A stretch of 26,045 nt of DNA from a virus. Taxonomy: Duplodnaviria; Heunggongvirae; Uroviricota; Caudoviricetes. The stretch lies in the IMG/VR virus record IMGVR_UViG_2695420600_000004, one strand, 5' to 3'. Position numbers: made by a program. Each line of letters starts with the position of its first letter. Position 1 is the stretch's first letter. Positions 1 through 3,000 of this stretch are shown piece after piece.

Positions 1-3000
1 CCTCAAAAACACCATCATACACTAAATCAGTAAGTTGGCAGCATCACCAGCCTTCTTGAGGCTACCACCTGTTTTCAGGTGTCATTCAGACGTGATTTGC
101 CCCAGATTGGGAAAGCACGCTTTTTTCTCAGCTATCGTCCTCTTATTTTGCCGTTACATTTCTTTTTGCACTCTAATGATTAATTTACAATAATAATATC
201 GGTAATTATTGAGTAATAATAAATTGATTATTGCAAATGTAATTTAATTCCATCTTCGCGTTATATTCCAATCTTTAATCTCCGCATGGAACAAGTTGCA
301 TGCGTGACTATATTAAGACAACTTATAACCACCAAAACATTTGCTTTGCAAGCAAAAACAGTGACCATTGACTCTAAGAAAATTCCGATCTATTGTTAGG
401 GTCATCAAAGTTACTTAACAGTATTCCGAAATGAAAATACAAAGCAAGCTAATTGTCTTATTAAACATTATTATTGCATTTATATTATTTGAGCTTTTAG
501 CTCAAAAATTTGGTTTGAGTACATTATTTTAAAGCAAGATAAACAATATCGGGCACTCTAGTTTTTATAATTAACAATTAAACGTCCATAAAATGTTATT
601 TACTTTTCTTCGCTATTGTCATATCTTAATATAGTGGCTTACGCCACTCTACTTTCATCACATTTTGTACGTTTATGTACTCGCCATGAAGCTCTTTCAT
701 GGCGATTTTTTATTCTTAATCCAAGAACATACTCCCTACCTATAGCAAAATCACTTTTTTAACAAAAGAATAACGTATTTAGGTAATCATTACGAATTTA
801 CCCTATAGGTGCTACTGGCCATTCAATATCCGGTGCAGTTGATGTATCAACACGGTTCAGCAACACCCGATACTTTTTCCAGGCTTCCAGCAACAAGGTT
901 TCTTTCTCCGTTGCGATCTCCAGATCCACAGCATCCTGAAGCGGCGCTATATGCTCACTGGCTACCTGCATCAGGCTGTTTTTTGTTTCTTCCGCCTCCC
1001 GGATCCGGAACAGTTTTTCTGCTTCCGTATCCTTCACCCAGGCTGTGCCGTTCCACTTCTGAAACTCCCCTTCCGGGGATAACCAGGTGACATTTTCCGG
1101 TAATGAGCCGAGTTCAGAAATAAATAACGCGTCGCCGGAAGCCACGTCATAAACCGTTTTACCCCGATGATCTTCAACGAGATGCCACGATGTTTGCAGG
1201 CAGACCTGTATGAGGCGGAATATATGCGTCACCTTCACCAATAAATTCATTAGTTCCGGCCAGCAGGTTATAAATTTTTATGGTCCGTGCTTGTTCACTC
1301 ATTCTGAATGCCATTATGCGAGCCTCACAATATAGTTAAATGCGATGTTTTTGACGGTGTTTTCCGCGTTACCAGCAGCGTTAACGGTGATGGTGTGTCC
1401 ATGTGAACCAATCGCAACAGAGTGCGTATGAGCACCAATACCGACAGTATGCGCGTGTGCACCCGCAGATGCTGCTGTGCCGGACAGTGAGTGTGTATGG
1501 TTTCCTTCTGAAGATGATTTACCTACCCATTGGGAGGTGCCACTGGTTAATGAGCCACTGATACCAACCTGATTAGTCCCGCTAACTTGAGTACTCCCTG
1601 CCGGAAACATTCCAGTAGGTTGACTCCCGCTATTCGTTCTGGGCCCAGTCTGACTATGTTGGTGGGCCCCAGCTGAACTTGTAGAGCCGCTCAGACTGTG
1701 CGTATGCGCCCCGGTGTTATTCGTGGATTTAGTGCCGTAATCAAACGACGATGTGGTTTTCGTCCCCAAATCCGTACTGGATGCGCTGGCGCTGTGGGTG
1801 TGCGATTTAATGCCATCCTGTTCCTGAGACAATACGGCACGACCACTGGCGGGCTTGCCCTTAATCGTCCAGCCACGCATATCAGGGATCACGCCTGACG
1901 GATAAGCGGCTGCAAGTTTCGGGTAAGCAGATTTGTCAAAAGTCTGCCCCTGCATCAGGGCATAACCAGACGGAACGGTATCTGATGGCCACGGGATTGG
2001 TGCACCGACTGGATAAAACTCTGCAGGAGGATGAGCCGAGGTGTAAAGCTGCGCCCACGGCGACCAGTTTGCGTCGGTCGTATCCCGTCGTGAACGAATA
2101 AATGCCGGAGCATGAGCACCGCTTGTACCACTCCAGCCGATGAGTAACTCACCTTCGCCAACGGCTGTCATCCCTTTCAGGTGAATGATATTTCCATACG
2201 CTGTTGGATATCCGTTGTTATACACCTCGTATAACTCAAGACCTGCTGCCCCCTGCGTATTGTCTGTCAGCGCGGCTACCCGACCTTTTGAAGCCAGATT
2301 AACTGATGATACTGCTGTTCCACCTGACGGTAGCGCCCCGATCTCTGATGCCGTTGGCTTATTTCTGGAGTTATAGTCCCTTCGCCAGCCAGGTGAATAA
2401 TCTGTTCCGTGATTAATATAGGTAAACTGGGCGTTGGTTGTTCCGCCACCGCTGGATGTGGTCGGAGTGGTAATGCGGATCGTCATCGCTGACTTTATCC
2501 CCATTACTTCAATGACAGCTCCGGCGAGATGAATATTACCGCAGCCAGTATCAGTAATGATTTTATTATTGCCATAAGACCAGGAACCCTTGCACATCCA
2601 GTATGGATGGTTAAATGCTCCCTGAGAATCCAGCCACTCGATAAACTGTGCAGTCGTCCAGTTTCCTGTTGTTGTGCTTACTGACCCACCGAAGGCACGG
2701 CAGGCACCAATATTTTTCGTAAAGGTGTCTTTGCCAGGGATATCCGCACCGTTCTGATCTTTCTGCAGACGTTTCTCAGCATTGTCATTGGCTGCTTTTA
2801 CTGCCTTTGGCGTTGCCGCCAGCGTTTCAGACGTGCTGTTGGTCGCGCTGCTTAGCTGGATTATCCCTTTCTGTGCTGTCGTTGCATCCTGTGCGGTGTA
2901 TTTCCCGTTAGCCAGGTCATACGCGGCCTTAACGGCTTTTGGTGTTGCCGCCAGTGACTCGGAAGTGCTGTTAGTCGCACTACTGAGCTGTACTATCCCC

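What the first reader, a model, noticed from the sequence alone, without database searches (positions are those of the whole stretch)
1..48. Window begins inside an IS1 element
The first 48 bases are the exact IS1 left terminus in reverse orientation, so an IS1 sits immediately beyond the window. It may have truncated or rearranged the prophage b-region and could delimit the prophage end.
Basis: partly seen in the sequence, partly recalled or inferred. Interest (0 to 1): 0.4.

Follow-up and report, generated by a model that had tools for sequence, protein, structure and literature searches.

The report
IS1 copy inside prophage b-region
The window starts 48 bases inside an ordinary IS1 insertion sequence. 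The IS1 sits in the dispensable "b-region" of a decaying lambda-like prophage, where it replaced a few hundred bases; this is a routine feature of Shigella and E. coli genomes.

Summary
Window 1-48 is identical, reverse-complemented, to the insA-proximal (left, IRL) end of the curated K-12 IS1A. From base 49 the sequence is lambda-like phage DNA.

The window's own source record was not found. Window 1-5723 is identical to Shigella sonnei 53G, where a complete 768-bp IS1 with open insA and insB' frames follows. The same junction occurs in at least 79 complete E. coli genomes.

The predicted 9-bp target duplication of AGCCTTCTT is absent. Uninterrupted relatives (225 E. coli genomes; phages ev099, mEp332, PhiR70_1) show that the IS1 stands in place of 550 bp in E. 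coli strain 104, or 741 bp in 53G. The window-side junction is fixed and the far-side endpoints are nested, which is the pattern of IS1-associated deletion.

The IS1 does not mark the prophage end. In ev099 the order is tfa, 1.5 kb, AraC-family gene, IS3 fragments, attP, int. The insertion point is 749 bp past tfa and about 2.5 kb short of attR.

In E. coli STEC409 the two flanks of this IS1 lie about 2.25 Mb apart, so it also takes part in rearrangement.

The window ends in a 39-nt IS2 terminus, so it is probably a whole short-read contig broken at repeats. Known biology; low interest.

The parts
1..48 (-). IRL terminus of IS1 (IS1 positions 48 to 1). It holds the terminal inverted repeat and a promoter-like site for insA at 41-14 on the minus strand.
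   Evidence: Identical 48/48 to the K-12 IS1A end. The 23-nt repeat is unique in the window, with 0 expected by chance. A promoter-like match lies at 41..14 on the minus strand. PMC12428005 states that the insA promoter partly overlaps IRL.
49..57 (.). No second copy exists at the other IS1 end.
   Evidence: The far flank is GCCAATAAG in E. coli 104 and CACCCAATT in 53G and L032. No genome matches a constructed simple insertion with the duplication.
49..797 (.). AT-rich (25-32% GC) remainder of the phage b-region between the IS1 and tfa. It is continuous with the b-region of phage ev099 and IS1-free prophages.
   Evidence: Alignment A1. The full 1516-bp IS1-free segment is about 99% identical in phages ev099, mEp332 and PhiR70_1. 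Composition profile.
798..1314 (-). Tail fibre assembly gene tfa, inactivated by a 65-bp deletion that shifts the frame. It is the last late gene before the b-region.
   Evidence: Alignment A3 against the 582-bp tfa of E. coli 104. Pfam Caudo_TAP on the 150-aa residual ORF.
26007..26045 (-). 39-nt right terminus of IS2 at the other edge of the window. Both window edges are therefore IS ends.
   Evidence: Identical 39/39 to the reverse complement of the right end of curated K-12 IS2A (NC_000913.3 381260-382590).

Best explanation
The first 48 bases are the insA-proximal end of a complete, probably still functional, 768-bp IS1. It is inserted in the non-essential b-region of a lambda-like prophage, 749 bp downstream of tfa.

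Shown:
- The same IS1/phage junction is present in S. sonnei 53G and in at least 79 complete E. coli genomes.
- The DNA on the other (IRR) side of the IS1 has been lost to different extents: 550 bp in one type and 741 bp in the other. The shorter deletion is nested inside the longer one, and both end at the fixed IRL junction.

Inferred:
- One ancestral IS1 insertion was followed by IS1-associated deletion(s) proceeding outward from the IRR end. The mechanism was either intramolecular transposition (adjacent deletion) or recombination with a second, transient IS1 copy. This erased the 8-9-bp target duplication and 550-741 bp of b-region.
- The window begins inside the IS because the source assembly broke at a multi-copy repeat. 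Its other edge is an IS2 end.
For: - Window 1-48 is identical to the K-12 IS1A end.
- Window 1-5723 is identical to S. sonnei 53G HE616528.1 (strain identity from PMC5447701). There the IS1 is 768 bp and differs from IS1A at 3 nt. insA (91 aa) and the insB' frame are open, and gene calls carry Pfam Zn_ribbon_InsA, HTH_Tnp_IS1 and DDE_Tnp_IS1.
- E. coli strain 104 has a 768-bp IS1 that PGAP annotates as an IS1A-family transposase with programmed frameshift.
- Counts among 5426 complete E. coli genomes: empty site 225; this IRL junction 79; the strain-104-type IRR junction 101; a constructed simple insertion with a 9-bp duplication 0.
- Alignment A1 shows 550 bp (columns 207-756) replaced in strain 104. 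The 53G junction falls after column 15, so 741 bp are replaced. The IMG/VR contig L032 has the same 53G-type junction.
- The uninterrupted sequence is carried by sequenced phages ev099, mEp332 and PhiR70_1.
- Published background: IS1 normally makes 8-9-bp duplications (PMC12428005). Missing duplications are usually due to adjacent deletion or IS-IS recombination (PMC11708052). IS1 is the most abundant IS in Shigella (PMC7373316).
- The window's last 39 nt are an IS2 end. Draft contigs L005 and L006 stop within 5 nt of the same IS1 boundary.
Against: - The window's own source record was not found. From base 5724 the window differs from 53G, and no complete E. coli genome exceeds about 93% identity over the whole window. 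What lies beyond base 1 in the source is therefore inferred from relatives.
- The deletion mechanism cannot be told from the end product.
- The E. coli 104 and 53G IS1 copies differ at 6 nt. Common descent of the insertion therefore assumes some divergence or gene conversion between IS1 copies.
- The junction counts are lower bounds, because BLAST capped at 40 pieces per record in about 375 IS1-rich records.
Confidence: 0.85

Rival explanations
1. In the source genome the IS1 is a rearrangement breakpoint. Beyond it lies unrelated chromosome rather than the rest of the b-region, so there it effectively bounds the prophage.
For: In E. coli STEC409 the tfa-side flank of this IS1 sits at 1.41 Mb next to a truncated htrE. 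The AraC-side flank sits at 3.66 Mb next to the other part of the yad fimbrial operon. In E. coli, 101 genomes keep the IRR junction but only 79 keep the IRL junction. Shigella chromosomes carry 229-348 IS copies, and IS1 is the largest share (PMC7373316).
Against: In 53G, which is identical to the window for 5.7 kb, and in E. coli 104, the b-region remainder follows the IS1 directly.
Confidence: 0.15
2. The 48 bases are an isolated IS1 end remnant with no transposase genes beyond it.
For: The window alone shows only 48 nt, 8 nt short of the insA start codon. Nothing in the window itself proves more.
Against: Every record examined that extends past this junction by more than one IS1 length has a full 768-bp IS1: 53G, E. 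coli 104, STEC409 and L032. L038 also holds 768 bp of IS1 from its first base. The opposite window edge is also an IS terminus, which points to assembly breaks at intact multi-copy repeats.
Confidence: 0.04
3. The shared junction in E. coli and S. sonnei reflects independent IS1 insertions at a hotspot. The missing DNA was lost by events unrelated to the IS1.
For: IS1 favours AT-rich targets (my own knowledge), and this region is 25-32% GC. The two IS1 copies differ at 6 nt.
Against: The junction nucleotide and the orientation are identical, and the flanking phage DNA is 99.9% identical over 800 bp. Both deletion types end exactly at the IS1 end. L032 combines the 53G-type junction with the IRR variant (G at IS1 position 12) seen in strain 104.
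Confidence: 0.05

Closest known systems
IS1A of E. coli K-12 (IS1 family; InsA / InsAB' transposase)
   Same: The 48-nt IRL end is identical. In the nearest complete genomes the element is 768 bp and differs from IS1A at 3-5 nt. It has insA, the A6C frameshift site and an open insB' frame.
   Different: This copy has no 8-9-bp target-site duplication. It is associated with loss of 550-741 bp of adjacent DNA.
IS-mediated adjacent deletions and IS-IS recombination deletions. The classic case is IS1-promoted deletions in the gal region (Reif and Saedler 1975, from my own knowledge); a review is in PMC11708052.
   Same: One IS junction is retained, the endpoints on the other side vary, and the duplication is lost.
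   Different: Here the events are natural and historical, inferred only by comparison. The pathway (intramolecular transposition or recombination between two copies) is unresolved.
b-region of lambda-like phages, specifically Escherichia phage Lambda_ev099 (Radostvirus), mEp332 and PhiR70_1
   Same: The gene order is J, lom, stf, tfa, then a 1.5-kb AT-rich spacer, an AraC-family regulator, IS3-family fragments, attP and int. Identity is 99% across the IS1-free target segment.
   Different: The window's lineage carries the IS1 and lacks 550-741 bp. Its tfa, lom and J are damaged. No phage record has the IS1 at this site.

Membership tests
IS1 family insertion sequence | Characteristic terminal inverted repeat (IRL: GGTGATGCTGCCAACTTACTGAT…) | tested here: met
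   Window 1-48 is identical to the K-12 IS1A end. The 23-mer is unique in the window, with 0 expected by chance.
IS1 family insertion sequence | Element length of 768 bp with IRR at the other end | tested here: met
   Met in relatives that share the junction: 53G (L004 11203-11970), E. coli 104 (L001 5281-6048) and STEC409. It cannot be read in the window's own source.
IS1 family insertion sequence | insA and insB' frames with the A6C -1 frameshift site; Zn-ribbon, HTH and DDE_Tnp_IS1 domains | tested here: met
   In the 53G copy, insA is 91 aa and the insB' frame is open. Pfam PF03811, PF12759 and PF03400 are on record for the gene calls. PGAP annotates 'IS1A family transposase, programmed frameshift' in strain 104. 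These lie outside the window itself.
IS1 family insertion sequence | 8-9-bp direct target-site duplication flanking the element | tested here: not met
   Flanks are AGCCTTCTT against GCCAATAAG (strain 104) or CACCCAATT (53G). No genome matches a constructed simple insertion. The associated deletion explains the absence, so this does not argue against IS1 identity (PMC11708052).
Lambda-like prophage b-region (DNA between the tail-fibre genes and attP/attR) | Position between tfa and a lambda-type att site, with the same DNA present in a sequenced phage genome | tested here: met
   Phage ev099 has tfa, the identical 1.5-kb segment, the AraC-family gene, attP and int. E. coli prophages end in a lambda/434-type attR beside ybhB.
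   About 1.95 kb of b-region lies between the IS1 and attR in strain 104. In 53G the AraC-family gene and IS3 fragments follow the IS1.

The most novel reading that the evidence does not exclude
The IS1-bearing b-region allele (net +218 bp in dispensable DNA) may still be packaged by viable lambda-like phages. If so, the phage itself ferried this IS1 copy between unrelated E. coli lineages and S. sonnei. That would explain one identical junction in at least 79 E. coli genomes from varied hosts and in Shigella.
Probability: 0.1. Interest if true: 0.3.

Novelty: already known. Interest (0 to 1): 0.1.

Why it matters
It matters little beyond annotation.
- It tells an annotator that the left edge of this sequence is a repeat-induced break, not a biological boundary.
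- The prophage's b-region continues on the other side of a 768-bp IS1.
- The prophage is degraded: tfa, lom and J are damaged, the b-region is partly deleted, and an old att fossil has been removed.
- It is a tidy natural example of IS1-associated nested deletion and of IS1-mediated inversion (STEC409). It fits the known role of IS1 expansion in Shigella genome decay.

Tried and rejected
- Search for the window's own record. No complete E. coli genome matches the whole window at more than about 93%. The GTDB species representatives have no exact match to the junction. Twelve IMG/VR contigs share the junction but none equals the window. An exact-protein look-up of the odd 725-aa J fragment found nothing.
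- The count of 280 genomes was rejected as a count of IS1 carriers. Only 48 of the 800 query bases are IS1, so IS1-free genomes also pass 80% coverage. It was replaced by balanced 150+150-nt junction queries.
- The query for the 53G-type IRR junction in E. coli was uninformative. BLAST joined the two halves across the extra 191 bp of the strain-104 type.
- A 9-bp duplication around the htrE breakpoint in STEC409 was looked for and not seen. The exact pathway of that inversion is left open.
- ARAGORN finds no complete tRNA in the deleted segment. The Rfam hits there are incidental matches to a tRNA-Ser-like fragment.

Full report
**1. The observation**

Window 1-48 reads CCTCAAAAACACCATCATACACTAAATCAGTAAGTTGGCAGCATCACC. 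It is identical, 48 of 48, to the last 48 nt of the curated mobile element IS1A of E. coli K-12 MG1655 (NC_000913.3 19796-20563) in the same orientation. That end lies next to insA: in E. coli strain 104 the annotated transposase CDS starts 55 nt from it.

The 23-nt terminal repeat occurs once in the window, with no match in any of 100 shuffles. The boundary is exactly 48/49. From base 49 the window aligns base for base with IS1-free prophages, and the equivalent bases of strain 104 are 100% identical to phage ev099.

**2. What lies beyond the window**

The window's own record was not found.
- No complete E. coli genome matches the whole window at more than about 93%.
- The species-representative genome collection has no exact match to the junction.
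- Twelve IMG/VR contigs share the junction, but none equals the window.

An exact-protein look-up of the truncated Tfa led to HE616528.1. This is Shigella sonnei 53G (PMC5447701). Window 1-5723 is identical to it.

In 53G a complete 768-bp IS1 follows, at L004 11203-11970. It differs from K-12 IS1A at 3 nt. insA (91 aa) and the insB' frame are open, the A6C frameshift site is present, and Pfam Zn_ribbon_InsA, HTH_Tnp_IS1 and DDE_Tnp_IS1 are on record for the gene calls.

E. coli strain 104 has the same junction and a 768-bp IS1 (L001 5281-6048), annotated by PGAP as an IS1A-family transposase with programmed frameshift. STEC409 and the IMG/VR contig L032 also have full copies.

**3. No target-site duplication; DNA is missing instead**

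The far flank is GCCAATAAG in strain 104 and CACCCAATT in 53G and L032.

IS1-free homologues STEC316 and MEI005 were aligned (alignment A1). They carry 550 bp (A1 columns 207-756, L002 9451-10000) between the two strain-104 flanks. The 53G junction falls after column 15, so 741 bp are missing there. The shorter gap is nested in the longer one, and both end at the IRL junction seen in the window.

Balanced 150+150-nt junction queries against 5426 complete E. coli genomes gave these counts:

| Configuration | Genomes |
|---|---|
| Empty site (no IS1) | 225 |
| IRL junction as in the window | 79 |
| Strain-104-type IRR junction | 101 |
| Constructed simple insertion with a 9-bp duplication | 0 |

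The IS1 counts are lower bounds, because BLAST capped at 40 pieces per record in about 375 IS1-rich records.

IS1 normally makes an 8-9-bp duplication (PMC12428005). Missing duplications are usually explained by adjacent deletion or IS-IS recombination (PMC11708052). I infer one ancestral insertion followed by IS1-associated deletion(s) from the IRR end. Which of the two pathways acted cannot be told from the product.

**4. Does the IS1 delimit the prophage? No.**

The full 1516-bp IS1-free segment is about 99% identical in the sequenced phages Lambda_ev099, mEp332 and PhiR70_1. In ev099 the order is J, lom, stf, tfa, the 1.5-kb spacer, an AraC-family regulator, two IS3-family transposase fragments, then int and xis.

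In the E. coli prophages the same b-region ends beside ybhB-bioA. It ends in an attR whose core and arm match the K-12 attB and the attP of phage 434 and lambda-type phages.

The insertion point is 749 bp past the tfa stop codon and about 2.5 kb short of attR. About 1.95 kb of b-region remains beyond the IS1 in strain 104.

In 53G the IS1 sits 15 bp from the start of the AraC-family gene, which is called there as two ORFs of 167 and 58 aa. Beyond that come the IS3 fragments, then a full-length intS, yfdC and mlaA. STEC409 has the same argW-intS context.

**5. The IS1 as a rearrangement substrate**

In STEC409 the tfa-side flank of this IS1 is joined to a truncated htrE at 1.41 Mb. The AraC-side flank is joined to the rest of the yad fimbrial operon at 3.66 Mb. 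This is an IS1-mediated inversion of about 2.25 Mb. What follows the IS1 in the window's own genome therefore cannot be assumed.

**6. Why the window starts in an IS**

The last 39 nt of the window (26007-26045) are identical to the right terminus of curated K-12 IS2A. Draft contigs L005 and L006 stop within 5 nt of the same IS1 boundary. A sequence bracketed by partial ends of two multi-copy IS elements is what a short-read contig looks like. This is an inference.

IS1 is the most abundant IS in Shigella chromosomes, which hold 229-348 IS copies (PMC7373316).

**7. Verdict**

It is wrong about the target duplication and about the IS1 marking the prophage end. This is a known element behaving in a known way, so interest is low.

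Noticed in passing
window 26007-26045: The window ends in a 39-nt IS2 right terminus, identical to the end of K-12 IS2A. Both window edges are therefore IS ends, which suggests the window is a whole short-read contig.
   Followed up: yes
window 798-1314 (-): tfa carries a 65-bp deletion relative to the 582-bp gene of E. coli 104. This shifts the frame and leaves a 150-aa residual ORF.
   Followed up: yes
window 5049-8863 (-): The tail-tip gene J is split by a frameshift near 7220-7226. Its C-terminal part contains two internal duplications of about 130 and 70 aa. By BLAST, window 5506-7040 repeats segments of one J region. DNA up to 5911 is 53G-type; from 6547 it is about 96% identical to a different 53G prophage (L015). 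This is either recombination between J alleles or a mis-assembly.
   Followed up: partly
window 4496-4978 (-): The lom homologue is truncated: 160 aa covering positions 1-159 of the 199-position Ail_Lom profile.
   Followed up: partly
L002 9551-9890 (the segment deleted in IS1-bearing genomes; not in the window): The b-region of IS1-free prophages and of phages ev099, mEp332 and PhiR70_1 contains a 340-bp segment that is 97% identical to K-12. It consists of 278 bp of the yodB-serU intergenic region plus the 3' 62 nt of tRNA-Ser(CGA) serU. This looks like a fossil attR of a serU-integrated prophage, as if chromosomal DNA had once been picked up. It also matches 'phage SerU-LTIIb'. The IS1-associated deletion removed it.
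   Followed up: partly
L001 3544-3627; L004 (53G); L027 (STEC409): Next to the lambda-type attR, the b-region carries the last 84 bp of an intS-like integrase gene plus IS3-family fragments. In 53G and STEC409 the same b-region is instead continuous with a full-length intS at argW-yfdC. The same phage tail end thus occurs in two chromosomal contexts. The history is unresolved.
   Followed up: partly
L027 and L028 (E. coli STEC409, 3.66 Mb and 1.41 Mb): The two flanks of this IS1 are about 2.25 Mb apart, each fused to one part of the yad fimbrial usher gene htrE. This is an IS1-mediated inversion. No clean 9-bp duplication was seen at htrE.
   Followed up: partly
window 431-532 (+): A small ORF in the AT-rich spacer encodes a 33-aa hydrophobic peptide, MKIQSKLIVLLNIIIAFILFELLAQKFGLSTLF. 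It has a weak match, below the cut-off, to the small stress-response membrane protein YncL (NCBIfam NF000537, E 1.3e-05, 25 bits against a 35-bit cut-off). A terminator-like hairpin overlaps its 3' end (488-506), with a second one downstream at 681-705.
   Followed up: partly
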